DNA of 64,000 nucleotides from a virus (IMGVR_UViG_3300026488_000010), one strand, 5' to 3'. Numbered from the stretch's first letter, positions 4,583 to 55,169 are shown. Numbers and translations are program-made. Notes: generated by a model from the letters alone, not told the origin.

Positions 4583-5086
4583 TTATTCTTTTATTTGTTT
4601 TTGTAATGATGAATCATATACTTGTAGAACATCTATAAGTTCTAATTCAATCTGTCCCAAAATTTTATAAACTGTTGATGTAGCAATGCTAAATATTAAT
4701 TCATTTAACACATCTAAATATTGACCATAATGATTTAATTTTGATATTAGATCTAATGATTCAGCATTTCCATCATTCTTAATATTGTCTTGAAGGATAG
4801 TTATCTTTGATGATAAATCAGATAATTTATCATATAATACAAACTGTAAGAATTTATCTTCAGTTCCTTCTAATTCAAACATTAGATTCTCTTCAGGTGA
4901 TAGCTCCGGTTCTGGTTGCTCTTGACCTTCTTGTTCCTCTTGACCCTCTTGTTCAGACCTTTGATTAGGATCCTCTTTAGACGCATCAGGTTCATCATCA
5001 GAGTTTATTTCCTCTGCTTCTAATAGAAGAAATAAAGGTAAGTTTGTTTCTTCTAAAATTTGTCGTTGTCTATCTGTGAGTATCAT
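4583..5086 (-). CDS. Acidic protein, possible prohead core/scaffold component
   Basis: Immediately downstream of portal as T4 prohead-core genes are; E/Q-rich segment; N-terminal QILEE and LLLEAEE motifs. Confidence 0.45.
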   Translation of the reverse strand: MILTDRQRQILEETNLPLFLLLEAEEINSDDEPDASKEDPNQRSEQEGQEEQEGQEQPEPELSPEENLMFELEGTEDKFLQFVLYDKLSDLSSKITILQDNIKNDGNAESLDLISKLNHYGQYLDVLNELIFSIATSTVYKILGQIELELIDVLQVYDSSLQKQIKE

Positions 5087-15541: not shown

Positions 15542-15799
15542 TTAACTTCTTGATTGTTCTTGAGCTTTCTGTAACTCCGTTTTTACGACTCCACCTACAT
15601 TTTGTTGTAAATGATTAGATAAGTGATTATGTGCCGAATTTGCAGACTCTTTTCTAAAGCCACTCATAGCGTTAAATGTTGTGTCTGCTGTTTCGTTATT
15701 ATTATCTGAGCCTTGAAGGAACGCTGTTTTTTGTTGAGCCAATGGATCAGCACTTTCAAAGAGACCCAAAATAGGTCCCTTATCTATTAAATATTTCAT
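15542..15799 (-). CDS. Small protein with leader MKYLIDKGPILGLFES (putative head-internal family)
   Basis: Start re-called to ATG 15799 after AAGGA RBS; leader resembles MIYTIDKSALLEE of 45563..46099. Confidence 0.5.
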   Translation of the reverse strand: MKYLIDKGPILGLFESADPLAQQKTAFLQGSDNNNETADTTFNAMSGFRKESANSAHNHLSNHLQQNVGGVVKTELQKAQEQSRS

Positions 15800-17222: not shown

Positions 17223-17885
17223 TTATCTTCTATTGTTTTTGATAAAATTAATACCTCTACTTTTAAGACCATTACCAACAAACTGTTTATTGTCTAGTTT
17301 TAAGGCTATTTCACCTGCCCCTAGTTTAGGAACAGTTCCCATTCTACTAGGATTATATTGTTTAATTTTTCCAGCATTTCTTAACGCGACACCTAAACCA
17401 GACTTATCTTGATTTGGAGTATTCTTTTGAATTTCACTAAAGCTTCTTAAATCCGAAGATTCATTAAAACCTGTCAATCCTGAAGCATGTTTTGCTTGGT
17501 TATTTTCAACAGTTCTTGGGCCTTCTTCTTTATTGGTAATACCTTCTTTTGCAAGTTTAGATTGTTTACCAAAAGATTTTTTAGATATACCCTTTGTTAT
17601 AGAAGCAGACGCAGATGCAAAAGGTTCACCTTTTATATATGCGTCTCGTTTTCTTATTATTGATTCTTCAAAATTTTGAAATTGTTGTTCTTGATCTTTA
17701 ATCTTTTCAACATTATCTGCACCTAGTTCATCTTTAGCTGCTTCCATTTTTTCTAATTCGACTTCTGTTTTCTGTTTACGATATTCACCGACATTTTTTA
17801 ATTTGCCAAGTACTTGTTGAATATCTCCTCGGACAGCATCCATTATTTCACTTTCGATAATATATTGTTTAATTTGTATCTTCAT
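17223..17885 (-). CDS. Hypothetical protein with leader MKIQIKQYIIESE (putative head-internal family)
   Basis: Start re-called to ATG 17885 after AGGAGG RBS. Confidence 0.55.
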   Translation of the reverse strand: MKIQIKQYIIESEIMDAVRGDIQQVLGKLKNVGEYRKQKTEVELEKMEAAKDELGADNVEKIKDQEQQFQNFEESIIRKRDAYIKGEPFASASASITKGISKKSFGKQSKLAKEGITNKEEGPRTVENNQAKHASGLTGFNESSDLRSFSEIQKNTPNQDKSGLGVALRNAGKIKQYNPSRMGTVPKLGAGEIALKLDNKQFVGNGLKSRGINFIKNNRR

Positions 17886-22637: not shown

Positions 22638-22668
22638 TTTATTTCCTTATTTTTTATAATTATTTGTT

Positions 22669-29160: not shown

Positions 29161-30699
29161 TTATTGTGATATTTTTACAAAACCGTTATCAATATATAAT
29201 CGTCCAGGATTTGCAGGATCAGCAGTAGGTAAACTACTAAAATCAACATCTTGTAAATCTTGAGTAACCCAACTTACACCATCAAATATCAATGCGTGTC
29301 CGTACTGAGGAGAAGTTGTTAAATCAACATCGCCTAAATCACCAATTGATGTTGCATTGAATGCATCCATATCTTTAAAATTTGTATGTGTCCAATCTGC
29401 ACCATCAAACATCATAAGATCACCTGTCTGTGGCGAATTAAGAGTTACATCACCTAAATCACCAATTGATGTTGCATCCAACGCATTAAGGTCAGCGAAC
29501 TTACCAACCTGCCAAGAACCTGCTCCATCATTCATTAATATATCACCTTGATTACCAGATGGTAAACCTCCGGATCCAGCATTATCGATCTCTGATCTAA
29601 TCTTATCAGATGACCATGTAGTTGTTGATGCTTGATTTAAATCATCTAATTGTGATTCTATTGCAATTGTTCTCTCTGATACAATCTTATCAGATGACCA
29701 TGTAGTTGTTGATGCTTGATTTAAATCATCTATTGATACACCAACAGCATTATCAATCTCTGATACAATCTTATCAGATGACCATGTAGTTGTTGATGCT
29801 TGATTTAAATCATCTATTGATACACCAACAACATTATCAATCTCTGATACAATCTTATCAGATGACCATGTAGTTGTTGATGCTTGATTTAAATCATCCA
29901 ATTGTGATTCTATTGCAATTGTTCTCTCTGATACAATCTTATCAGATGACCATGTAGTTGTTGATGCTTGATTTAAATCATCTAATTGTGATTCTATTGC
30001 AATTGTTCTCTCTGATACAATCTTATCAGATGACCATGTAGTTGTTGATGCTTGATTTAAATCATCTATTGATACACCAACAGCATTATCAATCTCTGAT
30101 ACAATCTTATCAGATGACCATGTAGTTGTTGATGCTTGATTTAAATCATCTATTGATACACCAACAACATTATCAATCTCTGATACAATCTTATCAGATG
30201 ACCATGTAGTTGTTGATGCTTGATTTAAATCATCTATATCAGCACCAGAACCCGACGGGTTCGCAACATTATTTGCAGCAATAGCATTGTTGATTGATGT
30301 TGATGTTTTTGATGAACTCCAAACAGAATTTGAATTAATAGCACCATCATTGATACTTGCACCCGGTTGAATATTATTCAACAGTGTTGTAACTTGTTGT
30401 GAACTAAAAACTTTTGTATTTGATATATTAAGATCATCTACTTCCGCAAAGTCCAGTGAGTTATTATATGTTGCAAATGAGTTATTTATATATCCAACAA
30501 TTTTATTAGCTGACCACGTGTTAGGTCCTTGAATGTTATCATCCATATTTCCTAATAAATCATTCCATATAACTTGTCCATTTACAAGCCAACCATATTT
30601 TTCAGTATCTGTCGCAAATACCAATTCGCCTTGAACAGGTGGATTAAATGTAAAATAATCCTGTATTTCTCTTCGTAATAATATTCCAGTACTAGCCAT
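29161..30699 (-). CDS. Fibre-like protein with Mtd_N-like anchor and 28-aa tandem repeats
   Basis: GILLRR...GELVFATDTEKYGW; eight DDLNQASTTTWSSDKI units; two IGDLGDV repeats. Confidence 0.65.
   Translation of the reverse strand: MASTGILLRREIQDYFTFNPPVQGELVFATDTEKYGWLVNGQVIWNDLLGNMDDNIQGPNTWSANKIVGYINNSFATYNNSLDFAEVDDLNISNTKVFSSQQVTTLLNNIQPGASINDGAINSNSVWSSSKTSTSINNAIAANNVANPSGSGADIDDLNQASTTTWSSDKIVSEIDNVVGVSIDDLNQASTTTWSSDKIVSEIDNAVGVSIDDLNQASTTTWSSDKIVSERTIAIESQLDDLNQASTTTWSSDKIVSERTIAIESQLDDLNQASTTTWSSDKIVSEIDNVVGVSIDDLNQASTTTWSSDKIVSEIDNAVGVSIDDLNQASTTTWSSDKIVSERTIAIESQLDDLNQASTTTWSSDKIRSEIDNAGSGGLPSGNQGDILMNDGAGSWQVGKFADLNALDATSIGDLGDVTLNSPQTGDLMMFDGADWTHTNFKDMDAFNATSIGDLGDVDLTTSPQYGHALIFDGVSWVTQDLQDVDFSSLPTADPANPGRLYIDNGFVKISQ
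29581..30240 (-). repeat. Intragenic 84-bp tandem repeat, 8 units
   Basis: atcagatgaccatgtagttgttgatgcttgatttaaatcatc recurs at 29605, 29689, 29773, 29857, 29941, 30025, 30109, 30193. Confidence 0.95.
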
Positions 30700-31040
30700 T
30701 AGTAATCTCCATTTAATTCATCTAAATTATTTTGTATTTCACTATTATTTGAATCTATTTTTTTCTTAACTGATTGAGCAGCACCATATACACCAGCACC
30801 TGCAGTTCCAATCGCACCTGCAATAATTAAAGGTTTTAAAACAGATTCTTGTAAAATAGGTTTAGGTTTTATATCTTTTAACCCTTTTGTTATTCTACTT
30901 GAACCACCATATTGCACTTGAGCTGTAGAACCGGAGGCATTAGAAACACCGCCAATTCCTCCAGTGATACCTCCAGCACCTGAAAATGCACCATCCTCTA
31001 AAATTGTTTTTATCAATTGTTTATTTACTTTAAGTATCAT
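30699..31040 (-). CDS. Small Gly-rich protein with leader MILKVNKQLIKTILED (putative head-internal family)
   Basis: ILE and ILQE motifs, GAGGITGGIGG and IIAGAIGTAGAGVYGAA segments. Confidence 0.55.
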   Translation of the reverse strand: MILKVNKQLIKTILEDGAFSGAGGITGGIGGVSNASGSTAQVQYGGSSRITKGLKDIKPKPILQESVLKPLIIAGAIGTAGAGVYGAAQSVKKKIDSNNSEIQNNLDELNGDY

Positions 31041-31042
31041 TA

Positions 31043-31645: not shown

Positions 31646-31656
31646 ATTTTTTCCTT

Positions 31657-33003: not shown

Positions 33004-33420
33004 TTATCCTTGTCTTTTAACTGATCTTAAATCTGTTCTAAACTTTGTCGGTAATTTTCCAGCACCTGCTAATCGTAATTTTGTTTGATCAATAGCATGT
33101 TTATCTGATTCTGTGTATCCAATTGGAATTGGAGAGTTAGTAATATTTGTAGCTTTAGATGCAAGATGTATCATATCTTTTTGAGCAGGACTAATAGGAG
33201 GAGCCATTTCTTCAATAGCTTTAATAAATGCTGTTTCTAGAATTATTCTAGTACTCTCCATTAAACCATTATCAATCAATATTTTACGAGCTTGCATAGT
33301 CGATTCATTGATCATCATTTTTAATTGTAATGTTTTAATTTCCGATAATGAGTCTGATTCTTCTAATACTCCGAGACTGTAACGATTTCTAATATTTTCT
33401 AAAATTAAATCTAATTTCAT
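33004..33420 (-). CDS. MKLDLILEN-family protein (putative head-internal)
   Basis: First ~65 aa align with 46869..47444 and 47444..48079. Confidence 0.6.
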   Translation of the reverse strand: MKLDLILENIRNRYSLGVLEESDSLSEIKTLQLKMMINESTMQARKILIDNGLMESTRIILETAFIKAIEEMAPPISPAQKDMIHLASKATNITNSPIPIGYTESDKHAIDQTKLRLAGAGKLPTKFRTDLRSVKRQG

Positions 33421-33664
33421 ATATCATCCTTTATTGTTGGAGCTAGAACGCTCCTTTAATTTTCTATTGTTTATTTGCTTGCATATTCGATTCATTGATC
33501 ATCATTTTTAATTGTAATGTTTTAATTTCCGATAATGCGTCTGATTCTTCTAATACTCCGAGACTGTAACGATTTCTAATATTTTCTAAAATTAAATCTA
33601 ATTTCATATATCATCCTTTATTGTTGGAGCTAGAACGCTCCTTTAATTTTCTATTGTTTATTTG
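33291..33664. repeat. 187-bp tandem duplication (33291-33477 / 33478-33664), 2 mismatches
   Basis: Direct comparison; differences at 33299/33486 and 33351/33538. Confidence 0.9.
33464..33607 (-). CDS. 47-aa leader-only copy of the MKLDLILEN protein created by the duplication
   Basis: MKLDLILENIRNRYSLGVLEESDALSEIKTLQLKMMINESNMQANKQ-stop with its own AAGGA RBS. Confidence 0.5.
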   Translation of the reverse strand: MKLDLILENIRNRYSLGVLEESDALSEIKTLQLKMMINESNMQANKQ

Positions 33665-37071: not shown

Positions 37072-37072
37072 C

Positions 37073-37942: not shown

Positions 37943-37952
37943 TTATTTTTCC

Positions 37953-39395
37953 TTAACAAGCATTAGGATTGATATAATTTAATCCTGATTCACTATTAAT
38001 TAATGCTACATCTGCTGCAGATGGAGCAGTAAGAGCCGGACAATTATCAACAACAATTGCTGATTTTATTGTTTTATTTGCAGTATTGATATTTGAAACA
38101 CATTCTAATGATGTACAATTCTGTAACATATATGCTGCATAAATCGATGCGGACATATCAATATCTAATGTTACTAATGATGAACAATTTTTAAATGTTT
38201 CAGCGAATGTCTCAACCTTAGATGTGTCCAAATCAACAATTGTTGTTAAAGATGTACATCCACTAAATAGCCCCGATACGATAATTAGATTCGGAGCGTT
38301 AAATGTTGCAGTAACTAATGATGAACAACCCATTAAACCATCAGAAATATTTGTAGCTAGAGTATTTATAGTAATATTAACCACAGATGATCTTTCAAAT
38401 GTACTAAACATATCAATAACTGATGGCGCATTAAGTACTACATTTTGTAAATTTGTTTTATAAAACATTCGATCAATTAATTTACAATTGTTGATATTAA
38501 TCGTAACGTCAGTGCTTGAAAAGGTTGCATATCTAAATGCATCAGTCATATTATGAAAATCTAAAGTTATAATATTATTTGAGGGAACAGTTAATGAACA
38601 ATCTTTAAATGTTCCAGCTATGATTGCGGAGTTTGGTATAGTGTTTATAAACCCTTCTAAATCTGTAAAGTCTGATGATTCAAAAGTATTTGTCCAATAA
38701 TCAACTGCACTTAAATCCATACTAGGCAAAGTTGTCATACCCGAACTAGCGAATGTACTTTCAAGTGCTTTTATGTCACATGTTCCTTGAACCGTAACAT
38801 TTTGGAGGGCTACACAATCTTCAAATGTGCTAATCCATGTGTCACTTTTAACATTACCATTTATATATACATTAAGTAATAGTGAGTTATCAATAAATGT
38901 TTCATTAAAATGTTTTTGAGTAATATCACAATTAAATGTTATAGTTGTACAATTGGTATCAGTTACCCCACCAAAAAGAGTAACTGCTGATATATCATTA
39001 AATGTTACTGAAGTAATTCTAGCACCTCTAATTGCTAAAACATATACTTCGGTGTTTGGAACCATCGATTCAAATGTATATACTCCACCTTGTGTATAAC
39101 CTCTCATAGAACCATCATCGAATTGATCATATTTGATTGTGCCATCCGGTAATGTTATTTTAAACATACATGATGAATAGACGCTAGGGCGACCGCTATA
39201 ACTATCAGATAAATCTTCTGTTATTGTTAAAGAAAATGATAAACCAATATCAGGTTTAAATAGTTTTTGTAGTCCATGTTCAGTTTTTATATATCCATCA
39301 ATCACTGGAACAATTTGATCTTGAATTTTTGTATTTATTTTTAAAACTTGCTTATTTATACCATCAGCTGTTTTAATTTTAAAATTTGGTATCAT
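37953..39395 (-). CDS. BspA/DUF285-like leucine-rich-repeat adhesin
   Basis: Repeats GLMGCSSLVT, LFSGCTSLTT, TFKNCSSLVT, MLQNCTSLEC; LDTSKV-type spacer. Confidence 0.7.
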   Translation of the reverse strand: MIPNFKIKTADGINKQVLKINTKIQDQIVPVIDGYIKTEHGLQKLFKPDIGLSFSLTITEDLSDSYSGRPSVYSSCMFKITLPDGTIKYDQFDDGSMRGYTQGGVYTFESMVPNTEVYVLAIRGARITSVTFNDISAVTLFGGVTDTNCTTITFNCDITQKHFNETFIDNSLLLNVYINGNVKSDTWISTFEDCVALQNVTVQGTCDIKALESTFASSGMTTLPSMDLSAVDYWTNTFESSDFTDLEGFINTIPNSAIIAGTFKDCSLTVPSNNIITLDFHNMTDAFRYATFSSTDVTININNCKLIDRMFYKTNLQNVVLNAPSVIDMFSTFERSSVVNITINTLATNISDGLMGCSSLVTATFNAPNLIIVSGLFSGCTSLTTIVDLDTSKVETFAETFKNCSSLVTLDIDMSASIYAAYMLQNCTSLECVSNINTANKTIKSAIVVDNCPALTAPSAADVALINSESGLNYINPNAC

Positions 39396-39404
39396 TATTA
39401 TTCC

Positions 39405-40259
39405 TTATATTGTATAATATATTGTGCCATTTGGCTCATAATCAACGTTTTCGTTTGTTAATTCTTTAGTTGAAATTACAGGAGTATTTATTTTTTTACC
39501 CCATTGACCATTCAATTTTATCCATTCTTGAAACTCGTATCTTTGAACAATTGTAATTTGAACAATAAATTCTTTTTGATCTCGAATATTTGTCGCGAGG
39601 TCTCTAAATGGTGCATATTCAATACCTCTTTTCGTAACAGGCTCAGCATTAACTAATACTCCCATGTGATATTCAGGAAAACCTTCTAAAAGAGTTAACT
39701 CCATTGTACCAAAAGATAGCTTATCATAAGTGTGAGTTAAATCATATTCTAATGGTAACTCACCATTAGAATTCAATATTTTGAATTTTGATATAAATTG
39801 ATTATGATCACCTGGTGTAATCAATAAAAATATTGCTAAATCAACTTGTTCAGCGATTTCATCAATATTATCAACATCCATACCCAATGCAAAGTCATGA
39901 TACATTGTTGGCGTACATGAACCTTTTTCAGCATGACCTGCTAATAGCTCATCACCTTGGAATAATGACAATCCTTTAGAAACATAGAAGCCATCAGTAC
40001 AATAAATTTTATAAGTTTCAGTGTATTCTTTTGGAAGTTGAGGATATTGAATATATTCATCTCTATCTGAACCAATCGTTGAATCTGGTTCTCGCTCACC
40101 AGTTAGTAAATCATCAAGATTTCTCCAAACTATTTGTCCATTAGCTATCCATCCATGTTCGTGTGTATCAAGAGCAAATACGATTTCACCGATAGCAATA
40201 CCAGCAGTAATTAAATCTTCTTTTGAACCTCTGCGTTGCAATAATGTATTATCTTGCAT
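39405..40259 (-). CDS. Mtd_N-like anchor protein with inserted domain
   Basis: LLQRRGSKEDL...GEIVFALDTHEHGW; C-terminal GTIYYTI. Confidence 0.6.
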   Translation of the reverse strand: MQDNTLLQRRGSKEDLITAGIAIGEIVFALDTHEHGWIANGQIVWRNLDDLLTGEREPDSTIGSDRDEYIQYPQLPKEYTETYKIYCTDGFYVSKGLSLFQGDELLAGHAEKGSCTPTMYHDFALGMDVDNIDEIAEQVDLAIFLLITPGDHNQFISKFKILNSNGELPLEYDLTHTYDKLSFGTMELTLLEGFPEYHMGVLVNAEPVTKRGIEYAPFRDLATNIRDQKEFIVQITIVQRYEFQEWIKLNGQWGKKINTPVISTKELTNENVDYEPNGTIYYTI

Positions 40260-40530
40260 TTGAAATCTCCTCTGAATGTACTTTATTTTTAAATTCTAAT
40301 TTGCGTACTTGAATTTCAGGTACCCACATTATCTGACCATTAATAACTCTACCAACATAATTATAATCAAATGGTTTTAGAAACATATTTGAAGTTAATT
40401 CATCATTTTCCCACATCTTCATAATTTTTTCTTTTGATCTTTGGATAATTATTATATTAACTTCATCTTTTTTTGTTATATTATCTAATACATGTTTACC
40501 TGCAAATTTCAAATTTTTAATTGCTAACAT
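40249..40530 (-). CDS. Hypothetical protein
   Basis: 93-aa ORF, GGAG RBS. Confidence 0.5.
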   Translation of the reverse strand: MLAIKNLKFAGKHVLDNITKKDEVNIIIIQRSKEKIMKMWENDELTSNMFLKPFDYNYVGRVINGQIMWVPEIQVRKLEFKNKVHSEEISNAR

Positions 40531-40532
40531 GT

Positions 40533-40796
40533 CTATCTCCCATCTACTGTATTGTTTGAATTACCATTAAGTAAATAAACATTACCATCGTTATTTGAAC
40601 TAGGTATGATTACAACATTACCAGTACCTGTGCCGTCAGATGGTGGCACATATGGATCTACTGGAGCCGTTGATACTTCCGGAAATACAAAAATACTTTT
40701 ACCATATGTTCTATTATTATATTTATCTAATAACGCTTCATCCGTATCAGCACTATACTTATTTCTATTTGCGCCTGATTCTAATACTCTTGCCAT
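40533..40796 (-). CDS. Small hypothetical protein, paralog of 32764..33000
   Basis: TYGKSIFVFPEV...NDGNVYL. Confidence 0.5.
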   Translation of the reverse strand: MARVLESGANRNKYSADTDEALLDKYNNRTYGKSIFVFPEVSTAPVDPYVPPSDGTGTGNVVIIPSSNNDGNVYLLNGNSNNTVDGR

Positions 40797-41536
40797 TATT
40801 TTTCTCCATTTTGTACTATATATTCTTTTAAATTATATTCTATTGAGTCAAAGTGATCTGCAATGAAATCACCTGACCAATCATGCACTATTTTTATCTT
40901 CGCGGATATTGTATCAGCAAATGGTCTAATTCCACCCAACATCGTAGCTGGAAATTCTAAGAATGCATAACTTGGCCCTTTATCTCCAATAACTGATTGT
41001 GACATTACAAGCTCTCCATCAATTCCAAATGATACAGGAGTATCAATCACAACAATGTCTCGATACACTTCGAGTTCACCATTACTAGGATTATAATAAT
41101 AAAATAATTCTAGTTCAAAATTTCCAGCCCAAACATCTTTCTTTACTGATGTTTGTGTTGGTTGAGGATCACTCATTGGATCAACTACCCCATTATACAC
41201 TATTGTGAAATCAACATATACTTTAAAAGGTAATGATATAACACCTTCATTCAATACAGTATCTATAAGGTCCATAGGTATTGCATCAGTTATTCCAAAC
41301 TTTGGATAAACATTATATCTAAATGATGAATATCTAACCATATCAGTTATATCACTATCGATTGTTACAAATGATGTCGGGGCCTCTTTTAATTTCATAA
41401 ATGTTAGAATACCTTTTGATAAATAACATATCTCTTCAGTATCTGTAGTATATGCTAATTCACCTTCTATTGGTGGATCTAGCTCAAGTTCAGCTTTAAG
41501 TTTTCGTCTTAAAATGATTCCAGAATCTGCCATCAT
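40796..41536 (-). CDS. Mtd_N-like anchor protein with unique C-terminal domain
   Basis: SGIILRRKLKAELELDPPIEGELAYTTDTEE. Confidence 0.6.
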   Translation of the reverse strand: MMADSGIILRRKLKAELELDPPIEGELAYTTDTEEICYLSKGILTFMKLKEAPTSFVTIDSDITDMVRYSSFRYNVYPKFGITDAIPMDLIDTVLNEGVISLPFKVYVDFTIVYNGVVDPMSDPQPTQTSVKKDVWAGNFELELFYYYNPSNGELEVYRDIVVIDTPVSFGIDGELVMSQSVIGDKGPSYAFLEFPATMLGGIRPFADTISAKIKIVHDWSGDFIADHFDSIEYNLKEYIVQNGEK

Positions 41537-41733
41537 TTACTCCTATTTGCATCATGCATAATTGAGTGTAATGGTTTTTTTAATGGATCAAAGTCAACAG
41601 CTTCTTTGACATCATCTGCGTGTGAACCGATTGCTGCACCTACTGCTGCTGCACCCATCCCTGCTGCACCCATCCCTGCGAGAATCTTCATCTCTTCTAT
41701 AATAAATGATTTATTTATTTTCATATTTTTCAT
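41533..41733 (-). CDS. Small Gly/Ala-rich protein with leader MKINKSFIIEE
   Basis: Leader plus hydrophobic LAGMGAAGMGAAAVGAAIG. Confidence 0.6.
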   Translation of the reverse strand: MKNMKINKSFIIEEMKILAGMGAAGMGAAAVGAAIGSHADDVKEAVDFDPLKKPLHSIMHDANRSK

Positions 41734-41776
41734 ATTTTTCCTTTTCTATCTTTATCGATAAAGATCGTTTTGTAAT

Positions 41777-42493
41777 TTATAATACCCAAATCATTTGATC
41801 AGGTGGTGTTTTTCTTAAATCTTCTAATGTCTTCATTCGAAGTTCTTTTGCCTCTTGAATAAGCTCTTCAGCATTTAAATTTATTTCACCAAATGGTGTA
41901 TTAAATCTATTAAACTTTTTTCTAATTTTACCAATAGCATTCATAATATATGCGCATGCTAAGTCTCTAAAGAGATCATACATATCAGGATGAATTGATG
42001 TTGGATCAGAATGAACAACCTCTAATTCTAAAAGAAATTCATTATTTATATAAGAGAATCCAGCCTTAGTTACTTCTATGATGTTTGGAGAAATAAATCT
42101 CATTGTATCTTCAGCTCTAACCATATTTGCCATATCTAAATAATTTTGACGAACTAGATAATCTGTAACATCACCAGTTACTGATTGACTAAACATGTGA
42201 TCATAATCAACGTAATGTGCCTTATCAACTTTATTTAATATTTCCATAATTTTATAAGGAAAATTTGTGATCTCATACCTTAGTATCGGATCATCTGAAA
42301 CAATGTGACCTTCTGTTACTTTGTACCATTTGTGTAAACCAGAGTACGCGCTAAATTCTGGTAGGACGTGCATTTGAATTTTTTCTATAATTTTTTGATC
42401 TGATATCTCTAGCGCCATTACATCGGCACCAAGCTCAGTTTTAATATGATCTAACACATTATCCCAGCTTTGCCAGCTATTACATTCAGTCAT
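41777..42493 (-). CDS. Neck/head-completion protein, T4 gp13-like
   Basis: AIGKIRKKFNRFNTPFGEINLNAEELIQEA matches gp13 WG-x-x-x-x-KF...PGG-x-TLN...A. Confidence 0.7.
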   Translation of the reverse strand: MTECNSWQSWDNVLDHIKTELGADVMALEISDQKIIEKIQMHVLPEFSAYSGLHKWYKVTEGHIVSDDPILRYEITNFPYKIMEILNKVDKAHYVDYDHMFSQSVTGDVTDYLVRQNYLDMANMVRAEDTMRFISPNIIEVTKAGFSYINNEFLLELEVVHSDPTSIHPDMYDLFRDLACAYIMNAIGKIRKKFNRFNTPFGEINLNAEELIQEAKELRMKTLEDLRKTPPDQMIWVL

Positions 42494-42572
42494 ATATTGC
42501 TCCTCGTATATCGCAGTATATACTATACGATATTTGTTTATTTTAATATTTGTTGTTTATGTTTGATTTCAA

Positions 42573-42607
42573 CCACAAGAAAGTATCTAGGCACATGCCT
42601 AGATACT
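42573..42607 (-). terminator. Hairpin + TTCTTGTG signal
   Basis: 11-bp stem AGTATCTAGGC/GCCTAGATACT. Confidence 0.6.
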
Positions 42608-42845
42608 AATGCCCATAAGGACTTCGAGTGGAACGGCGAGTTCTATCATTTGAACGAATAGAACCGACGTTATTATTTAAAGGTTTTTGGCGGTCAGGTT
42701 GAGCACCAGCAGTTAATGCTGCTGCACCTCCAATCGCTAACCCACCTGCACCTGCACCTGCAATAGCTGCTGTCTTACCATCAACATGATCAATCAACTC
42801 GTCAAAGAATTCTAAAATTAATCCTTTATTTATTTTTTCAATCAT
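42606..42845 (-). CDS. Small Gly/Ala-rich protein with leader MIEKINKGLILE
   Basis: Leader plus AAIAGAGAGGLAIGGAAAL. Confidence 0.6.
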   Translation of the reverse strand: MIEKINKGLILEFFDELIDHVDGKTAAIAGAGAGGLAIGGAAALTAGAQPDRQKPLNNNVGSIRSNDRTRRSTRSPYGH

Positions 42846-43348
42846 TTTAAAGTGCTTCCCATTCGAGTACTAGGTGATAATACCGAACGAGTGCTGTCAA
42901 GCGCGCTTGTTTGTATATTAGCCATACCTTGATTCATTGGTCCAGCAACAAAAGGATTTAAATAATATTGACCGGGATTGTTCATCTTAACATCTTCGGT
43001 ACCTTGAGCATATTCTTTTGAGCTTTCAGATGCTGAATCCATTTGAGCATTCCAAGGTTGACCATTTGGATCAACTTGTACTGTTGCTTCTGTTGGCAAC
43101 TCTTTTGAATCTTTATGTTTTAATAATTCATAAGGGACTTGGTTATATACTTGGCCAAGTTTATTACCAATATGAGAGATTGGTCCACCAACCATAGGAT
43201 TAAATATATACTGTCCAGGATTGCTATCAAGTGTTGCTGAGAGTGCTTGGTCTCTATTTACAAGAGCTTGTTGACGATTCTGCATAGATGTGTCCCATGC
43301 TCCATTAACTGCTTCTAAAATTAAACTCTTATTTATATCATATATCAT
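42842..43348 (-). CDS. Protein with leader MIYDINKSLILE and an internal duplicated NPGQY-x-x-NP-x-V-x-GP motif
   Basis: Start re-called to 43348 (AGGGG RBS); NPGQYIFNPMVGGP / NPGQYYLNPFVAGP. Confidence 0.6.
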   Translation of the reverse strand: MIYDINKSLILEAVNGAWDTSMQNRQQALVNRDQALSATLDSNPGQYIFNPMVGGPISHIGNKLGQVYNQVPYELLKHKDSKELPTEATVQVDPNGQPWNAQMDSASESSKEYAQGTEDVKMNNPGQYYLNPFVAGPMNQGMANIQTSALDSTRSVLSPSTRMGSTLK

Positions 43349-43349
43349 T

Positions 43350-43985
43350 TTATTTCCCCTTTTTTGCTCGGACTTTTTTAGCAACATCTATTAATAATTT
43401 TGATGCTGAATTTCTTGTAGCTTTAACAGCTTTATCTTTTGCAGCTTTTGCAGCTTTGGTTGTTTTATCTACATATTTTTCACCATTCTTTGCTAAGTGT
43501 AATCCACCAGCAATAGTTGTGGCACTGACAGCTAATGTTTTTGCAGCTGTTGTTAAACCAGATTCATCTTCATCATCAGAATTGATTTCATCTAAATCTG
43601 TCGATTCCCCAAAATAACCTTTAACTGTATCAACTGTATCATTAATTGATTGAACAGTGTTTCCTAAACCATGACCAACATCATATGCTGCTCTTGGTAC
43701 TAGTGCAATATTTGGATCAGTCTCAGCATTATATGCTGCCTTGACCGAGTCCATTGCCGTTCTCGCACCTGCTCCATAATCAACACCTCGTAAATTCGAT
43801 GTACCAACTCCTGTTAACACCGCAGCATTATTAATAGAACTATTTACAGCTGATCCAAGATTACCATTATTCGCAGCATATGCTCCAATTCCTGCTAAAG
43901 ATGCGCCTGCTACATATTTACCTTTATTACCATTAAGATGATTTAACAATCCTTCTTGTAATAAATAAATCATTTTTTGTTTCAT
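43350..43985 (-). CDS. Gly/Ala-rich protein with leader MKQKMIYLLQE
   Basis: LLQEG...GKYVAG shared with 43994..44506; second hydrophobic segment after acidic linker. Confidence 0.6.
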   Translation of the reverse strand: MKQKMIYLLQEGLLNHLNGNKGKYVAGASLAGIGAYAANNGNLGSAVNSSINNAAVLTGVGTSNLRGVDYGAGARTAMDSVKAAYNAETDPNIALVPRAAYDVGHGLGNTVQSINDTVDTVKGYFGESTDLDEINSDDEDESGLTTAAKTLAVSATTIAGGLHLAKNGEKYVDKTTKAAKAAKDKAVKATRNSASKLLIDVAKKVRAKKGK

Positions 43986-43993
43986 TTTAATTC

Positions 43994-44506
43994 CTAAAAT
44001 TTATTTTTTATATAATCAGTGTATGGTGTAACATGTGCAGCTAAGTTATCATAAGCTAAACCTGCAGATACAATTGGATGTCTAACTGTAAAGTTTGTTT
44101 GATCTGGTTCTTGATCCATTGATGTTACTTTTTTAATAACATTTGATGCTGTGTCTTGTGCATGTGATAAAGCGTTTTCTTTTTGTATCGAGTGCTGATA
44201 ATCATAAGTGTCGCCATTATGATCCCAATTTGATATTAAGTTATCAGGTTTAGAAAAAACTTCATTCGCTGCTTGTAACTTTGCTGTTATTGCATTAGCA
44301 GTTGATGCATTATGTAAATCGGCTGATGCTTCACCTGCAAAATCTTGAACTGCATCTTGTGCTTCAACACCTAATAAACCTTTACCTGCTGCGTATGTTC
44401 CAGCAGTTCCAGCAGCCGCTAAACCAGCAACATACTTACCATAATTGTTTTTTAGGTGATCAACAATCCCCTCTTCTATAATATGATTTTTAATATCAAT
44501 TATCAT
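43994..44506 (-). CDS. Ala-rich protein with leader MIIDIKNHIIEE
   Basis: Leader and NNYGKYVAGLAAAG shared with neighbours. Confidence 0.6.
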   Translation of the reverse strand: MIIDIKNHIIEEGIVDHLKNNYGKYVAGLAAAGTAGTYAAGKGLLGVEAQDAVQDFAGEASADLHNASTANAITAKLQAANEVFSKPDNLISNWDHNGDTYDYQHSIQKENALSHAQDTASNVIKKVTSMDQEPDQTNFTVRHPIVSAGLAYDNLAAHVTPYTDYIKNKF

Positions 44507-44892
44507 TTTATTTCCTTATTATGTTTTCTATAGTAATTATTTGCACCTGCTCTAAATGCTGGAGCTGCTAATAATCCACCTAATGATGCGCCAATCGCGC
44601 CTGAAGCTGCTGGAACTACAAAATTATTATTTAGAGTATCAAATGAATCATCACCGATATCAATATCATCATATTGTGATTTAACAATACCTAACCCAGT
44701 ACCTACGGCAGCACCTATAGCAGCTGGAGCGGTACTCGCAGTTAAACCTGCAACATAAGTATTATTTGCTAAACCCAATGCTGTCATATTTTCTTTATCT
44801 CTTTTCGCCTCATAACTTTTATGTTTATCACGAATTCTATCTTTAATGATCGTTGCAAACTCTTCTATGATTTCAAATTTATTTAATTTCAT
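44503..44892 (-). CDS. Glycine-zipper protein with leader MKLNKFEIIEE
   Basis: AIGAAVGTGLG and GAIGASLGGLL; start re-called to 44892 (GGAG RBS). Confidence 0.6.
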   Translation of the reverse strand: MKLNKFEIIEEFATIIKDRIRDKHKSYEAKRDKENMTALGLANNTYVAGLTASTAPAAIGAAVGTGLGIVKSQYDDIDIGDDSFDTLNNNFVVPAASGAIGASLGGLLAAPAFRAGANNYYRKHNKEIK

Positions 44893-44893
44893 A

Positions 44894-45463
44894 TTATGCT
44901 CCATAACTTTTCATAAATTCTAATGTATCTGAATCTTTTATAGTATTACTTAAATTATCATGAGTTGTATCATGTGCTGTTGATTGTGCTGTTGATTGTG
45001 CTGTTGACTGAGATGTTGAATATGCTGGTGTATTTGCATCATCATTCGTTTTTCTACTAAAATCTGGTATCTTTTCTTTTAACTCATTAAAAACTTTTAT
45101 TACTGTTGATTGATCTTCTGGACCTTGTATATCTTTTAAATGATCATTTTCAACAGCTGATGAGTTAGAATCTAGAGGTGAATCTTTTGTTTCACCTAAT
45201 GTTTTAATACCATCACCATTAGCATCTGTACCATATGTTGAATTAAGTTTTATCATTGAATCTTTTGACCAATCACCTGCTTTTTCAACGAAACCTTTTA
45301 AAGCTGAACCACCTCTATCAACAGCATCCTTAGCTGTTGGGCCAAAAGCATTAGCATGTGCCAATGCTATACCACCTGCAGCCATTAAACCTTTTCCCCA
45401 ATTATCTTTCACACTTTGTAAAACACCTTCTTGAATAAGGTGTGCTTTTATATCTATTATCAT
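44894..45463 (-). CDS. Protein with leader MIIDIKAHLIQE
   Basis: Leader, WGKGLMAAGGIALAHA, STAQ repeats. Confidence 0.6.
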   Translation of the reverse strand: MIIDIKAHLIQEGVLQSVKDNWGKGLMAAGGIALAHANAFGPTAKDAVDRGGSALKGFVEKAGDWSKDSMIKLNSTYGTDANGDGIKTLGETKDSPLDSNSSAVENDHLKDIQGPEDQSTVIKVFNELKEKIPDFSRKTNDDANTPAYSTSQSTAQSTAQSTAHDTTHDNLSNTIKDSDTLEFMKSYGA

Positions 45464-45562
45464 ATTGGTTTCCTCAAAATTTCTTATATAAATATCCTAA
45501 AATTCCTATATAAGAATTTCTATTAATTTGTTAGTATCCGGAGATACTAACATACTAACATA

Positions 45563-46099
45563 CTACCCTCTCATTCGTTGACCGAACTCAGTACCTTTTC
45601 TGATACCATACTCCGCCGCATTGTTAAGATTATTTAGACGAACAGCAGCCGCCCCTTTTCTTAACATAGAATCATCTTGAGATGTTGTATTGTATCCATG
45701 CTTAGCAAGACGTTGTTTAATCGGATTGATACTTGAACCATGCAATAATCTTTTTGCTGCGAATGATTGCCCAATCGTTCCAAGACCGGCCCCAATTGCT
45801 GCACCTGTCATATCATATTCATCATCATTAACTTCTTGATCAATATCATCTTGTTTCATTACCGCTTTATCAGCATATGAAAGATCACCATCACCATGTA
45901 CAGAATTACCTGCTGCACCTCCAACTAACATACCGGCAGTTGGAGCCATAGATGCAGCAGCCGCATTATTAAATGTTTTTGATGCTGAACTATGGTTTAA
46001 TGCTCTAGTTGAACGTCTTGCAAATTTTTCAGCTTTTTCTGGAGAATCTATTCTAAATGCTTCTTCTAAAAGAGCGCTTTTATCTATTGTATATATCAT
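45563..46099 (-). CDS. Glycine-zipper protein with leader MIYTIDKSALLEE
   Basis: AGMLVGGAAG and GAAIGAGLGTIG. Confidence 0.6.
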   Translation of the reverse strand: MIYTIDKSALLEEAFRIDSPEKAEKFARRSTRALNHSSASKTFNNAAAASMAPTAGMLVGGAAGNSVHGDGDLSYADKAVMKQDDIDQEVNDDEYDMTGAAIGAGLGTIGQSFAAKRLLHGSSINPIKQRLAKHGYNTTSQDDSMLRKGAAAVRLNNLNNAAEYGIRKGTEFGQRMRG

Positions 46100-46199
46100 T
46101 TTATTTCCTATTTGATTATTTAATTATATGAATTTTAGCACAAGAATAATCATAGAGATAAACTCCATGATTAAATTATGTGTAATTATGCGTAATTAT

Positions 46200-46859
46200 C
46201 TATCTACTTCTACCAAGATTTCCATAACCCGTAGGTCTAGAAACATTATTTGAAGGATGTGATAAATTTTGTTTGAATGCGGATCCACCACTTTTCAGAG
46301 CAGAGCCAAAATTCTTAACACCGTGACCAGTTGCAGCAACGCCACTTTTAGCAGCACCATATGCAGCATGTGCACCTTGTTTTACTTGAGAAGCTGTTTT
46401 ACCAACACCATTTCCTGCAACATGTGCAGCAATACCCCCAGCAGCAGCTAATCCAAGCCCACCTAAGATACCAATACCTGAATCATCATCAGCTGCATCA
46501 TCAATAGGTGCAGCTGCGTCAACTGACGCATGCTGAGCATCATGTTCAACCTTTTGACGAACATCAGATACTGGAGCAGATTCTTTAGCTTGAAACATTT
46601 TGTCTCCACCATAGAAATGACCAGCAGCCGTTGCTTCGTTTCCGATTTTAGAACCAGCAGCTGAAGCAGCTCCTCGAACAGCATCGTAACTTCCATCAAC
46701 AGCATTCTTAACACCTGAACCAAATGTTCCAGCATGTGCTAATCCAAGTCCAGCGCCAACAGCACCGACTTTCATACCATTTCTTGCCATCTGAGACATC
46801 TCTTCTTCTAATAGAGAAAGAGATTCTAAGATGATACTTTTATTTACATCAAAAATCAT
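46200..46859 (-). CDS. Gly/Ala-rich protein with leader MIFDVNKSIILESLSLLEE
   Basis: VGAVGAGLGLAHAG and IGILGGLGLAAAGGIAAH hydrophobic segments. Confidence 0.6.
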   Translation of the reverse strand: MIFDVNKSIILESLSLLEEEMSQMARNGMKVGAVGAGLGLAHAGTFGSGVKNAVDGSYDAVRGAASAAGSKIGNEATAAGHFYGGDKMFQAKESAPVSDVRQKVEHDAQHASVDAAAPIDDAADDDSGIGILGGLGLAAAGGIAAHVAGNGVGKTASQVKQGAHAAYGAAKSGVAATGHGVKNFGSALKSGGSAFKQNLSHPSNNVSRPTGYGNLGRSR

Positions 46860-46868
46860 ATTTGATCC

Positions 46869-47444
46869 TTAACGTGTTTGAGATTGAGGTCGAATAGGTG
46901 CACGATTTCTAAATTGTTGCATTCTACGTTTCAAAGTTTGTCCAGCAGCAGGAATTGCACGTTGTGCAATCATACCTGCTCCAACACCACCTGCTAGTGC
47001 ACCTGCTCCAATAGCAGCAGCAGTTCCTGGATTGGCACCAATAACATTCCCAATAGAAGCAGTTTGACCCAAATTAAGCTCAGGATTGTAACCTTGAGAA
47101 TATCCTTGCTGCATTGAGCTATTAATAACTTCGCCTGTATCATCATAATCCAAATCCATTGAACCATCTTCCATGTCGCCTGTTGCTAAACCAGCAACGC
47201 CTGCAACACCATGAGCAAGACCTTGAGCGCCACCAGCAACGTGATCAGCCCAAGATTCTTGTAAAAGATTTTGAACAGCTACGATTGTACCTTCTTCAAC
47301 TAACATTTTACGAATTTGCATAATACTTTCATTGATAAGGATTTTACCTTGTAAAACAGTCTTTTCATCAAGACCATCGGACTCCTCTAAGAGTCCAAGA
47401 TTGTATTGATTACGAGTGTTTTCTAATACTAAATCTAATTTCAT
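46869..47444 (-). CDS. MKLDLVLEN-family protein with Gly-rich hydrophobic C-terminus
   Basis: ~65-aa leader with LVLE, LLEE, LINE, LVEE, LQES motifs. Confidence 0.65.
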   Translation of the reverse strand: MKLDLVLENTRNQYNLGLLEESDGLDEKTVLQGKILINESIMQIRKMLVEEGTIVAVQNLLQESWADHVAGGAQGLAHGVAGVAGLATGDMEDGSMDLDYDDTGEVINSSMQQGYSQGYNPELNLGQTASIGNVIGANPGTAAAIGAGALAGGVGAGMIAQRAIPAAGQTLKRRMQQFRNRAPIRPQSQTR

Positions 47445-48079
47445 TAGTCATCTCCTAGTGCTGCAGCGGCAGCTCCACCAGCAGCTAATAGTGCGGCGGC
47501 AGCTCCACCTTTCTTAAGAAGAGATTTATCTTTCTTAGAACCAGTTGTTGCAGGTGTTTTATTACCAGCTTTTACAGGTGCTCCAGCTTTAGGTTCTGTT
47601 TTAGCAGAAGCCTTGTCATGTTTCTTTTGAGAAACTAATGCTTTTGATGCTTTAGACTTTTCTTTCTTAGCAACATTAGCAACCACAACTGCATGTTTCT
47701 TAGCTTTAACTTGGTCATCACGCTTTGCAATTTGCTTTTGAGCATTTTGTTTAGCAGCAACAGCCTTCTCAGCATCTTCTGCTTTCTTAGTACGCATTGC
47801 TTTTGCTTCTGCTTTCTTAGCAGCTTTCTCAGCGTTACGTTTAACTGTACGATCAAAATTTGACTCTTCAATAACAGCATATGTCCATGCTTCTTCTAAA
47901 ACTTGTTGAACAGCACTCATAGTACCTTCTTCAACTAACATTTTACGAATTTGCATAGTTGATTCGTTGATAAGAATCTTACCACGAAGCAACTCTGTTT
48001 CTGACATATTTTCTGATTCTTCAAGAAGTCCAAGATTGTAGCGATTACGAGTGTTTTCTAATACTAAATCTAACTTCAT
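47444..48079 (-). CDS. MKLDLVLEN-family protein with Lys/Ala-rich (histone H1-like) C-terminus
   Basis: Same leader; AEKAAKKAEAKA...KAKK basic region; hydrophobic tail. Confidence 0.65.
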   Translation of the reverse strand: MKLDLVLENTRNRYNLGLLEESENMSETELLRGKILINESTMQIRKMLVEEGTMSAVQQVLEEAWTYAVIEESNFDRTVKRNAEKAAKKAEAKAMRTKKAEDAEKAVAAKQNAQKQIAKRDDQVKAKKHAVVVANVAKKEKSKASKALVSQKKHDKASAKTEPKAGAPVKAGNKTPATTGSKKDKSLLKKGGAAAALLAAGGAAAAALGDD

Positions 48080-48089
48080 AATCAAATCC

Positions 48090-48674
48090 TTATTTTAGGT
48101 TTGCAAGGATTCTCGCAACCACATTTTCAGATTCTTCAAGAATTTCAGACTCTTCTTCGATTACAGTACTTTCTTCAACGATTGCACCTTCTTCAGACTC
48201 TTCAGACTCTTCAGACTCTTCACTTTCTTCAACGATTTCACCTTCTTCACTTTCTTCAACGATTTCACCTTCAGCTTCTTCAGACTCAGCCATTGGTTGA
48301 GGCTCTTCTGCCATTGGAGCATCTACAGGAAGTTCACCATGATCTTCTTCAGCATCAGCCATACCATCTTGATCACCATCTACTGGAATAAGTTGACCAT
48401 CTTGGAATACATACTTGTTACCAACAGCATCGAATAATTCAATTGGTGATTCAGGAGCCATTTCTTCAGGAGCATCTGGTACTTCAATTGTATCAGGAAT
48501 AAAATCCTCAGCAGCTTCAGTGATAATGTCAGCACATAAATTGTGATAAAACTCAGACTCTTCTAATGTAACTGAACCTTTTTCAGCGATGTGGTTAAGA
48601 ACCATAGCATTACCCATGTTCGTACTTGTTTCTTCTAAAACACTTGCTAGTGTTTGTGCAAAATATTCATTCAT
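48090..48674 (-). CDS. Highly acidic protein, possible prohead core/scaffold (gp67/gp68-like role)
   Basis: Repeated IVEES/ILEES/VIEEE motifs, poly-EES runs. Confidence 0.5.
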   Translation of the reverse strand: MNEYFAQTLASVLEETSTNMGNAMVLNHIAEKGSVTLEESEFYHNLCADIITEAAEDFIPDTIEVPDAPEEMAPESPIELFDAVGNKYVFQDGQLIPVDGDQDGMADAEEDHGELPVDAPMAEEPQPMAESEEAEGEIVEESEEGEIVEESEESEESEESEEGAIVEESTVIEEESEILEESENVVARILANLK

Positions 48675-48789
48675 ATTTTTACCTTTGTTTTAATTTTTTA
48701 ATTTTGTGAATTGTTCTTGATTTGTGATTTTCTTAATTATTTGTTACCTAAGTGTTTTATTTATACCTAATTGTAAATAATTATAACAT

Positions 48790-55055: not shown

Positions 55056-55169
55056 TATAATTCCTTTAGTATATCTTTAGTATATCTTTAGTATATCTTT
55101 AGTATATCTTATTAAGTATTTGTTTACTTAACACTTTTAGTTCATTGTGTTTTTTATGTCTGAAATCAA

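What the first reader, a model, noticed from the sequence alone, without database searches (positions are those of the whole stretch)
41533..48674. Array of small proteins sharing a capsid-targeting-like N-terminal leader ending in (I/L)(I/L)xE
Seen: twelve genes at 41.5-48.7 kb (interrupted only by the neck gene) begin MKINKSFIIEE, MIEKINKGLILE, MIYDINKSLILE, MKQKMIYLLQE, MIIDIKNHIIEE, MKLNKFEIIEE, MIIDIKAHLIQE, MIYTIDKSALLEE, MIFDVNKSIILE, MKLDLVLE (x2), MNEYFAQTLASVLEE; five scattered genes have similar starts (4583, 15542, 17223, 30699, 33004). Downstream of the Glu most are unrelated. Known: T4 internal proteins carry a ~10-aa capsid targeting sequence (MKTYQEFIAE-type) removed by gp21 after (I/L)xE, and phiKZ-like heads process many proteins after Glu. 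Inference: a large modular head-loading system in which one short address tag delivers ~17 different cargo proteins into the virion and so into the host at infection.
Basis: partly seen in the sequence, partly recalled or inferred. Interest (0 to 1): 0.85.

Follow-up and report, generated by a model that had tools for sequence, protein, structure and literature searches.

The report
Shared head-address tag on phage proteins
An uncultured giant phage from a hydrothermal vent puts the same 12-residue N-terminal tag, ending in the cut motif of a T4-type head protease, on about 14 small, fast-evolving proteins, so they are probably loaded into the phage head and perhaps injected; none of this has been tested by experiment.

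Summary

- **The tag is real.** Its consensus is M-(K/I)-Y-K-I-N-K-x-L-I-L-E, with Glu fixed at residue 12. A matrix built only from relatives hits 6-8 of 73 window N-termini but 0-1 of 18,605 internal positions.
- **It is conserved while the cargo changes.** The tag persists across an uncultured jumbo-phage clade (neighbouring adaptor protein 42-92% identical), while the proteins behind it turn over quickly.
- **It links to head assembly.** The core L-I-L-E also opens the clade's major capsid protein. Similar N-termini open T4 gp21-type prohead proteases. A 181-kb relative encodes such a protease next to its capsid gene.
- **The cargo has a shared character.** Half of the tagged proteins carry Gly/Ala-rich uncharged segments, against 7.5% of untagged small proteins.
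- **There is a second tag.** It is a ~75-residue MKLDL domain with several (I/L)-x-E sites.

Best reading, at about 0.6: a T4-like capsid-targeting and cleavage tag for internal head proteins. Cleavage, packaging and injection are inferred only.

This is a new variant of the T4 internal-protein and phiKZ inner-body themes. The scan had already noted this same stretch in an overlapping window of the same genome, not on other DNA.

The parts
48090..48674 (-). Conserved acidic protein (194 aa, net charge -56). V-L-E-E lies at residues 12-15. It is the first gene of the block and a candidate core or scaffold component.
   Evidence: Orthologues in all relatives are 36-60% identical. No Pfam or PHROG family.
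47444..48079 (-). MKLDL-domain protein (211 aa). Behind the N-domain come a Lys/Ala-rich basic region and a C-terminal Gly/Ala segment.
   Evidence: Only the N-domain (~65-76 aa) is conserved in relatives.
46869..47444 (-). MKLDL-domain protein (191 aa) with Gly/Ala-rich segments.
   Evidence: An internal leader-like stretch ends at E51.
46200..46859 (-). 12-residue-leader protein (219 aa), 34% Gly+Ala.
   Evidence: Leader score 15.4 bits. Composition.
45563..46099 (-). 12-residue-leader protein (178 aa) with two Gly/Ala segments.
   Evidence: Leader score 19.9 bits. Segments.
44894..45463 (-). 12-residue-leader protein (189 aa). Member of the conserved leader + E-G-x-L-x-H-x-K-x-N-x-G-K + Gly-zipper family.
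   Evidence: Leader score 18.4 bits. Family profile E 1.8e-22. Alignment A3.
44503..44892 (-). Short-register leader protein (129 aa, Glu at residue 10/11) with two Gly/Ala segments.
   Evidence: Orthologue in L001 is 75% identical.
43994..44506 (-). 12-residue-leader protein (170 aa), same family as 44894.
   Evidence: Leader score 15.3 bits. Family profile E 3.8e-20. AF2 mean pLDDT 37, so no confident fold.
43350..43985 (-). Leader protein (211 aa, Glu at residue 11; the L001 orthologue has Glu at 12), same family, with a basic C-terminus.
42842..43348 (-). 12-residue-leader protein (168 aa) without a Gly-zipper. It has an internal two-fold N-P-G-Q-Y motif.
   Evidence: Best leader score, 27.0 bits. 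Start choice.
42606..42845 (-). 12-residue-leader protein (79 aa) with a 24-residue Gly/Ala segment. A terminator-like hairpin follows at 42582-42607.
   Evidence: Leader score 16.9 bits..
41777..42493 (-). It is context for the array, not a tagged gene.
   Evidence: phrog_18911 at 2e-22 and phrog_211 at 3.8e-7. In cultured relatives it sits directly downstream of the prohead protease.
41533..41733 (-). Leader protein (66 aa; Glu at residue 13, or 10 from the second Met) with a 21-residue Gly/Ala segment.
   Evidence: Weak family hit, E 0.0046.
33004..33420 (-). Scattered MKLDL-domain protein (138 aa).
   Evidence: BLASTP to 47444 and 46869, E 4e-16 and 4e-13.
33464..33607 (-). 47-codon MKLDL-domain-only ORF, a near-duplicate of the start of 33004.
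   Evidence: 91% identity over 33 aa.
17223..17885 (-). Scattered, conserved, basic (+11) 220-aa protein with a 12-residue leader.
   Evidence: Leader score 11.1 bits. Tagged orthologues in L004, L005, L006 and L010.
4583..5086 (-). Scattered acidic (-27) 167-aa protein with a moderate 12-residue leader.
   Evidence: Leader score 9.4 bits. Composition.
30699..31040 (-). Weak leader variant (Glu at residue 15) with two Gly/Ala segments.
   Evidence: Leader score 7.7 bits. Segments.
15542..15799 (-). Doubtful leader variant (85 aa).
   Evidence: Leader score 3.3 bits.
48738..48745 (-). AACAAATA element 64 nt upstream of the start of 48090. It is a candidate promoter for the block.
   Evidence: 7 of the 12 minus-strand copies are intergenic and 2 more lie just upstream of a start, so 9 sit 20-64 nt before a gene start in a window that is 92% coding.

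Best explanation
The genes encode internal head proteins of an uncultured jumbo phage that is distantly related to AR9/PBS1-like and phiKZ-like phages.

**Proposed mechanism.**
1. Each protein starts with an address and cleavage tag. Most carry the 12-residue leader M-(K/I)-Y-K-I-N-K-x-L-I-L-E. A few carry a ~75-residue MKLDL domain that holds several (I/L)-x-E sites.
2. By analogy with the T4 capsid targeting sequence, the tag brings the protein into the prohead core during assembly.
3. The phage's T4 gp21-type serine protease then cuts after the Glu (P3 = I/L, P1 = E; the next residue is mostly N, G, S, E or A).
4. The mature, largely unstructured cargo stays in the DNA-filled head.
5. The cargo probably leaves through the tail at infection, together with the virion RNA polymerase encoded just upstream.

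**Shown by sequence.** The tag, its fixed register and its conservation. Its sharing with the capsid protein and with protease N-termini. The protease type in relatives. The rapid turnover of the cargo. The Gly/Ala-rich nature of the cargo.

**Inferred only.** Binding to the core, cleavage, residence in the virion, ejection, and any action on membranes or host defences.
For: 1. The tag is specific to N-termini and conserved in every relative fetched (adaptor identity 42-92%).
2. The motif I/L(P3)-x-E(P1) matches the T4 rule. T4 internal proteins lose a ~10-residue CTS ending in F-I-A-E (PMC8442874; PMC5694885).
3. More than 100 capsid-protein orthologues of the clade begin with ...L-I-L-E-N within residues 5-12. 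Further L-x-E-E sites follow, one near residue 70. This mirrors the cleaved N-terminal piece of T4 gp23.
4. The 181-kb relative G001 encodes a prohead protease beside its capsid gene.
   - It is 30% identical to the Staphylococcus phage SA1 protease (E 2e-21).
   - Its family profile hits T4 gp21 (PDB 5JBL) at 1.4e-15, with His and Ser invariant.
5. Protease N-termini across the family carry the same kind of hydrophobic-x-Glu start. In SA1 and BpSp the Glu is at residue 12, with K at 6 and I at 10.
6. Against the 91%-adaptor relative, array proteins are 54-84% identical. At 63-70% adaptor identity the cargo has been replaced but the tag is kept. This is the T-even internal-protein pattern (PMC3012670).
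7. The genes sit in the late structural module, between the virion-type RNA polymerase genes and the adaptor gene, behind a shared upstream element.
8. The cargo lacks a confident fold, as expected for proteins that must pass through a tail.
9. SPN3US gp53/gp54 share an identical 15-residue N-terminus that is cut at residue 12, and phiKZ gp93 is cut at residue 13.
Against: - There is no experimental datum: no cultured member, no virion proteome and no RNA data.
- The protease, capsid and scaffold genes of this genome are outside the window, and the whole genome is not held. They are seen only in relatives.
- The cultured relative SA1 has no such tagged gene set: 0 of 261 N-termini score 8 bits or more with the leader matrix. 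The expansion therefore cannot be tied to any existing proteomics.
- (I/L)-x-E motifs are not depleted inside the cargo relative to shuffles (45 observed against 40.7 expected). The independent signature of selection against internal cutting is therefore absent.
- In three genes the conserved N-terminal module extends to ~50 residues (A3). For those genes the '12-residue tag' may simply be part of a larger conserved domain.
Confidence: 0.6

Rival explanations
1. The tag is a protease-cleaved propeptide, but the proteins are building material of the head interior. They would form a core, scaffold or inner-body-like matrix that is degraded or stays in the capsid. They would not be effectors delivered to the host.
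For: - The block starts with conserved, scaffold-like genes: the acidic 48090 and the MKLDL domains with 5-6 candidate cut sites.
- Low-complexity Gly/Ala segments could self-associate.
- In phiKZ, two of six tested inner-body proteins stay in the head.
Against: - Building material is usually conserved. Here the cargo is replaced between relatives that keep 63-70% adaptor identity.
- Gene number varies from locus to locus.
Confidence: 0.2
2. The genes are a family of small membrane-associated proteins made in the infected cell, for example for exclusion, lysis timing or assembly at the membrane. Their shared N-terminus would serve oligomerisation or partner binding, not head loading.
For: - Gly/Ala-rich uncharged segments are present in half of the tagged proteins.
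- A few of these approach transmembrane hydrophobicity (19-residue Kyte-Doolittle mean 1.6-1.75).
- Three genes are true paralogues with a ~50-residue conserved N-terminal module.
Against: - The leader is not a signal peptide. It is charged, it ends in Glu, and the hydrophobic segment comes after it.
- Most segments fall below the usual transmembrane hydrophobicity.
- The same L-I-L-E start on the capsid protein and on the proteases is unexplained by this reading.
- The genes lie in the structural gene block.
Confidence: 0.12
3. The shared start serves something upstream of assembly. It could target the chaperonin, as reported for the N-terminus of T4 gp23. Or it could be a translation-initiation or recombination cassette that is copied along with the ribosome-binding site.
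For: - The reference list of PMC10052503 cites work showing that the gp23 N-terminus directs proteins to GroEL.
- The tag core is shared with the capsid protein.
- The ribosome-binding region G-G-A-A-A-T-A-A-A is also repeated.
- A duplicated tag-only ORF exists at 33464.
Against: - Synonymous codon variation under a fixed peptide argues against a purely nucleic-acid signal.
- Small disordered proteins are unlikely chaperonin clients.
- The same ribosome-binding sequence precedes untagged genes.
Confidence: 0.05

Closest known systems
T4 capsid targeting sequence on internal proteins IPI, IPII, IPIII and Alt, and the diverse internal proteins of T-even phages
   Same: - A short N-terminal tag (about 10 residues in T4, 12 here) on otherwise unrelated proteins.
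- It ends in hydrophobic-I-x-E.
- A gp21-type protease is present in the clade.
- The tag is conserved while the cargo is highly variable (PMC8442874, PMC3012670, PMC5694885).
   Different: - The tag sequence and register differ.
- The phage is an RNA-polymerase-encoding jumbo phage, not a T4-like one.
- There are many more tagged genes per genome (about 14, against 4-5 in T4).
- The cargo is dominated by Gly/Ala-rich segments rather than compact basic proteins.
- A second, long multi-site tag (MKLDL) coexists with the short one.
- Nothing has been shown experimentally.
phiKZ inner-body / injected protein operon (gp89-97, gp162-163; PF12699) and SPN3US ejection proteins gp53/gp54
   Same: - A gene array of head-internal proteins in a jumbo phage with a virion RNA polymerase.
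- Processing after Glu by a gp21-related protease.
- SPN3US gp53/gp54 share an identical 15-residue N-terminus that is cut at residue 12, and phiKZ gp93 is cut at residue 13.
- One SPN3US ejection protein has a predicted transmembrane helix just after its propeptide.
   Different: - No PF12699 domain is present.
- P3 is I/L here, not S/A/G.
- Known phiKZ-group propeptides are mostly 100-250 residues.
- There the paralogues share a domain, whereas here most share only the tag.
Prohead proteases of Takahashivirus-like (AR9/PBS1-like) jumbo phages: Staphylococcus phage SA1 and Bacillus phage BpSp
   Same: - Nearest cultured relatives by adaptor protein (23-27% identity) and by protease (30%).
- Their protease N-termini have the same register: K at 6, I at 10, E at 12.
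   Different: - In SA1 no N-terminus other than the protease's resembles the tag: 0 of 261 called N-termini score 8 bits or more.
- Their adaptor gene follows the protease gene directly, with no array.

Membership tests
T4-type CTS-tagged internal head proteins | A short (10-20 residue) N-terminal leader shared by otherwise unrelated proteins | tested here: met
   a 12-residue leader, with the cargo unrelated by BLASTP except for two small families.
T4-type CTS-tagged internal head proteins | The leader ends in the gp21 cut motif (L/I at P3, any residue at P2, Glu at P1) | tested here: met
   I/L at residue 10 and E at residue 12 in 39 of 39 leaders from relatives. The window's leaders are the same.
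T4-type CTS-tagged internal head proteins | The genome encodes a gp21-type prohead protease | tested here: inconclusive
   Met in the 181-kb relative G001 (PDB 5JBL at 1.4e-15). The window's own genome is not held, and the gene is not in the window.
T4-type CTS-tagged internal head proteins | The leader is removed and the mature protein is present in virions | not testable with these tools
   There is no cultured member and no proteome. Mass spectrometry is needed.
T4-type CTS-tagged internal head proteins | The leader is sufficient to package a foreign protein | not testable with these tools
   This needs a genetic system or procapsid co-expression.
T4-type CTS-tagged internal head proteins | Sequence similarity of the leader to the T4 CTS | tested here: inconclusive
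   I compared the consensus with the T4 CTS quoted in PMC8442874. Only Met1, an early K/Y and the hydrophobic-I-x-E end are shared. The sequences are too short for statistics.
phiKZ-like phage internal head proteins (PF12699) | PF12699 domain | tested here: not met
   There is no Pfam hit to it in any of the 12 array proteins, at E up to 1 or 0.1.
phiKZ-like phage internal head proteins (PF12699) | Cleavage motif S/A/G-x-E | tested here: not met
   P3 is I or L in all leaders.
phiKZ-like phage internal head proteins (PF12699) | Clustered array in the structural region of a jumbo phage that carries a virion RNA polymerase | tested here: met
Glycine-zipper families (Pfam Gly-zipper_Omp and relatives) | A significant match to a Gly-zipper profile | tested here: not met
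   Only 44503 matched, at E 0.35 and 11 bits against a cut-off of 25. The resemblance is compositional.

The most novel reading that the evidence does not exclude
A whole clade of uncultured vent and environmental jumbo phages uses one portable 12-residue head-address tag to load a rapidly changing arsenal of a dozen or more proteins. Many of these are glycine-zipper, membrane-active proteins that would be injected ahead of or with the DNA and the virion RNA polymerase, to open, remodel or disarm the host envelope and defences. The array next to the adaptor gene would be the hotspot where new cargo is captured by acquiring the tag, and the tag-only ORF at 33464 would be an intermediate in that process.
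Probability: 0.3. Interest if true: 0.75.

Novelty: new variant of a known kind. Interest (0 to 1): 0.55.

Why it matters
- **Extends a T4 principle.** If the reading is right, the T4 'address tag plus protease' principle reaches a distant, uncultured lineage of giant phages. There it has expanded to about 14 genes per genome.
- **Gives a predictor.** A simple sequence rule (Glu at residue 12 after L-I-L) predicts which unknown genes are virion-internal and possibly injected.
- **Points to candidate effectors.** It flags a fast-evolving gene set as candidates for early host take-over or anti-defence functions.
- **Suggests a tool.** It suggests a short tag for loading foreign proteins into large capsids.
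- **Is also a caution.** Everything beyond the sequence pattern rests on analogy.

Tried and rejected
**Searches for relatives and for this genome**
- Megablast of the array against cultured phages found no match.
- A single-protein scan of viral contigs found nothing.
- The whole genome is not held.
I fetched relatives with the search for related loci instead.
- tblastn of the relative's capsid protein against cultured phages found no match.

**Family and structure searches on the array proteins**
- PHROGs, Pfam and NCBIfam gave no family.
- The protein atlas gave no lead for 43994 (best score 0.78; the atlas model has pLDDT 0.46).
- AlphaFold2 on alignment A3 gave mean pLDDT 37, so no usable fold.

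**Protease search**
- The PF03420 genome search on G001 missed the protease. It was later found by phmmer, by BLASTP and by a profile against PDB.

**Tests that gave no usable answer or a negative one**
- Homology between 4583 and the acidic protein between protease and capsid genes in phage SA1: phmmer gave 4.7e-5, but BLASTP with compositional adjustment gave E 8. I rejected it as acidic bias.
- Complex prediction of the G001 protease with a tagged 70-aa G001 protein returned no verdict (score 0.00).
- A test for depletion of (I/L)-x-E inside the cargo showed none.
- Sequencing runs: no RNA holder is listed. The only strong DNA holder is a hydrothermal vent metagenome that may be the source of this DNA.

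**Cultured relatives**
- A whole-genome scan of phage SA1 for tagged N-termini found none at 8 bits or more.
- The proteomics papers on BpSp and DC4 give no cleavage sites.


Full report
**What the window is.** The window is AT-rich (about 30% G+C), and almost all genes lie on the minus strand. Gene 50290-53400 is a multisubunit RNA polymerase beta-like protein. It is about 25% identical to those of phiR1-37, Fusobacterium, Staphylococcus and phiKZ-like jumbo phages. Gene 13324-15336 is a large terminase. Gene 41777-42493 is a head-tail adaptor-like virion protein. No cultured phage is close at the DNA level. The only strong DNA holder is a hydrothermal vent metagenome. I therefore fetched 20 related loci through the adaptor protein. 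I also assembled one relative of 181,622 bp, G001, from ten pieces.

**The observation.** For 42842, 44503 and 47444 the tagged start is an internal ATG with the better ribosome-binding site. Six leaders align without gaps: M1, I/K2, x3, D/K4, I5, N/K6, K7, x8, L/I9, I10, L11, E12.

- A matrix built from 39 distinct leaders of relatives, window excluded, scores at least 12 bits at residue 1 in 6 of 73 window proteins. It scores at least 8 bits in 8 of 73. Among 18,605 internal positions the counts are 0 and 1.
- A matrix from the window alone finds 8 N-terminal and 4 internal hits in G001. Nearly all of the N-terminal hits lie around its adaptor gene.
- Conserved residues use varying synonymous codons.

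The pattern is therefore real, specific to N-termini, and selected at the protein level.

**What lies behind the tag.** After trimming 13 residues, BLASTP links only the MKLDL genes 33004, 33464, 46869 and 47444. A profile built from relatives shows that 44894, 43994 and 43350 form one family. Its conserved N-terminal module is about 50 residues long: the leader, then E-G-x-L-x-H-x-K-x-N-x-G-K, then a Gly/Ala zipper.

Ten of the twelve array proteins have uncharged Gly/Ala-rich segments of 17-42 residues. Across all loci, 42 of 85 tagged proteins have such a segment, against 23 of 306 untagged small proteins (odds ratio 12, p = 7e-17). No Pfam, PHROG or NCBIfam family fits. Models are of low confidence.

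The MKLDL genes share a ~75-residue N-domain with conserved sites near E8, E21/22, E39, E51 and about E64. The stretch ending at E51 resembles the short leader.

**Link to head assembly.**
- In the cultured relatives SA1 and BpSp, the adaptor gene follows the prohead protease gene directly. Their protease N-termini have K at 6, I at 10 and E at 12.
- G001 encodes a protease that is 30% identical to the SA1 enzyme (E 2e-21), next to its capsid gene.
- A profile of 42 family members hits T4 gp21 (PDB 5JBL) at 1.4e-15. His76 and Ser140 are invariant, and an N-terminal Glu is nearly invariant.
- The family's N-termini generally read hydrophobic-hydrophobic-x-Glu within the first 6-20 residues.
- More than 100 capsid-protein orthologues of the clade start with ...L-I-L-E-N. 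They also carry L-F-E-E and L-L-E-E sites, the last near residue 70.

The tag core is thus shared with the two classic substrates of a gp21-type protease.

**Evolutionary pattern.** Against L001 (adaptor 91% identical), array proteins are 54-84% identical. Against loci with 63-70% adaptor identity, the flanking genes 48090, 48790 and the RNA polymerase remain 47-74% identical. At that distance the array cargo matches only in its first 20-70 residues, or not at all. A conserved tag over replaceable cargo is what has been described for T-even internal proteins (PMC3012670).

**Comparison with what is known.**
- *T4.* Internal proteins carry a ~10-residue CTS that is cut once by gp21 (PMC8442874; PMC5694885).
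- *phiKZ group.* Propeptides are mostly over 100 residues and are cut at S/A/G-x-E. However, SPN3US gp53/gp54 share 15 identical N-terminal residues that are cut at residue 12, and phiKZ gp93 is cut at residue 13. The phiKZ inner-body proteins share PF12699 and most are injected.
- *This array.* It lacks PF12699 and uses I/L at P3. It works like the T4 system, but in a jumbo phage of the RNA-polymerase-bearing kind. That makes it a new variant, not a member of either family.

**Limits.** Cleavage, packaging and ejection are inferred, not shown. Three tests gave no usable support:
- The complex prediction returned no verdict.
- The motif-depletion test was negative.
- The apparent homology of 4583 to an SA1 acidic protein was compositional.

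No SA1 N-terminus reaches 8 bits with the leader matrix; only its protease start resembles the tag. The expansion is therefore specific to the uncultured clade and cannot be tied to existing proteomes.

**Verdict.** Confidence in the head-targeting and cleavage reading is about 0.6, and confidence in delivery into the host is about 0.4. Interest is 0.55.

Noticed in passing
window 48738-48745, 42531-42554, 13280-13287, 22661-22668, 55117-55124, 33659-33666: The octamer AACAAATA is not over-represented overall (13 copies against 12 expected). However, 9 of the 12 minus-strand copies lie 20-64 nt upstream of a gene start in a window that is 92% coding; 7 of the 9 are intergenic. The genes include 48090, the adaptor gene (two copies), the gene after the terminase and a tail-fibre gene. 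It may be a late promoter element.
   Followed up: partly
window 33464-33607 and 33004-33420: A 47-codon ORF repeats the start of the MKLDL gene 33004 (91% identity over 33 residues) and keeps its own ribosome-binding site. It is a tag-domain-only duplicate.
   Followed up: partly
window 20313-22637, 28030-32758, 36679-41536: At least nine genes of 119-620 codons share an N-terminal anchor of the type G-I-L-x-R-R ... G-E-x-V-(F/Y)-A-x-D-T, followed by unrelated bodies. They look like a large set of interchangeable tail-fibre or receptor-binding proteins.
   Followed up: no
window 9246-13259: This 1337-residue protein has a lysozyme/endolysin-like domain at residues 1081-1279 (phrog_13118, E 1e-18). 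It is possibly a virion-borne cell-wall hydrolase or a tape-measure fusion.
   Followed up: no
window 47444-48079: Behind the MKLDL domain lies a Lys/Ala-rich, histone-H1-like basic stretch (net charge +14), and then a terminal Gly/Ala segment. It may be a DNA-binding internal protein.
   Followed up: no
window 42842-43348: The best-scoring tagged protein has no Gly-zipper. It carries a two-fold internal repeat of the type N-P-G-Q-Y-x-x-N-P-x-V-x-G-P, and it is conserved at 26% identity in L006.
   Followed up: no
L031 7049-9925 (Bacillus phage BpSp, KT895374.1): The prohead protease of BpSp appears to be annotated in pieces of 83 and 92 codons. These are separated by other ORFs, one of them a 314-codon ORF with three relatives (E 3e-15 to 6e-22) scattered in G001. 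This suggests an inserted mobile element or intron in the protease gene.
   Followed up: no
L025 8722-11213 (relative G001): The capsid and protease genes of the clade are adjacent, and both start with a short Glu-8 version of the tag. The window's own copies lie outside the window.
   Followed up: partly
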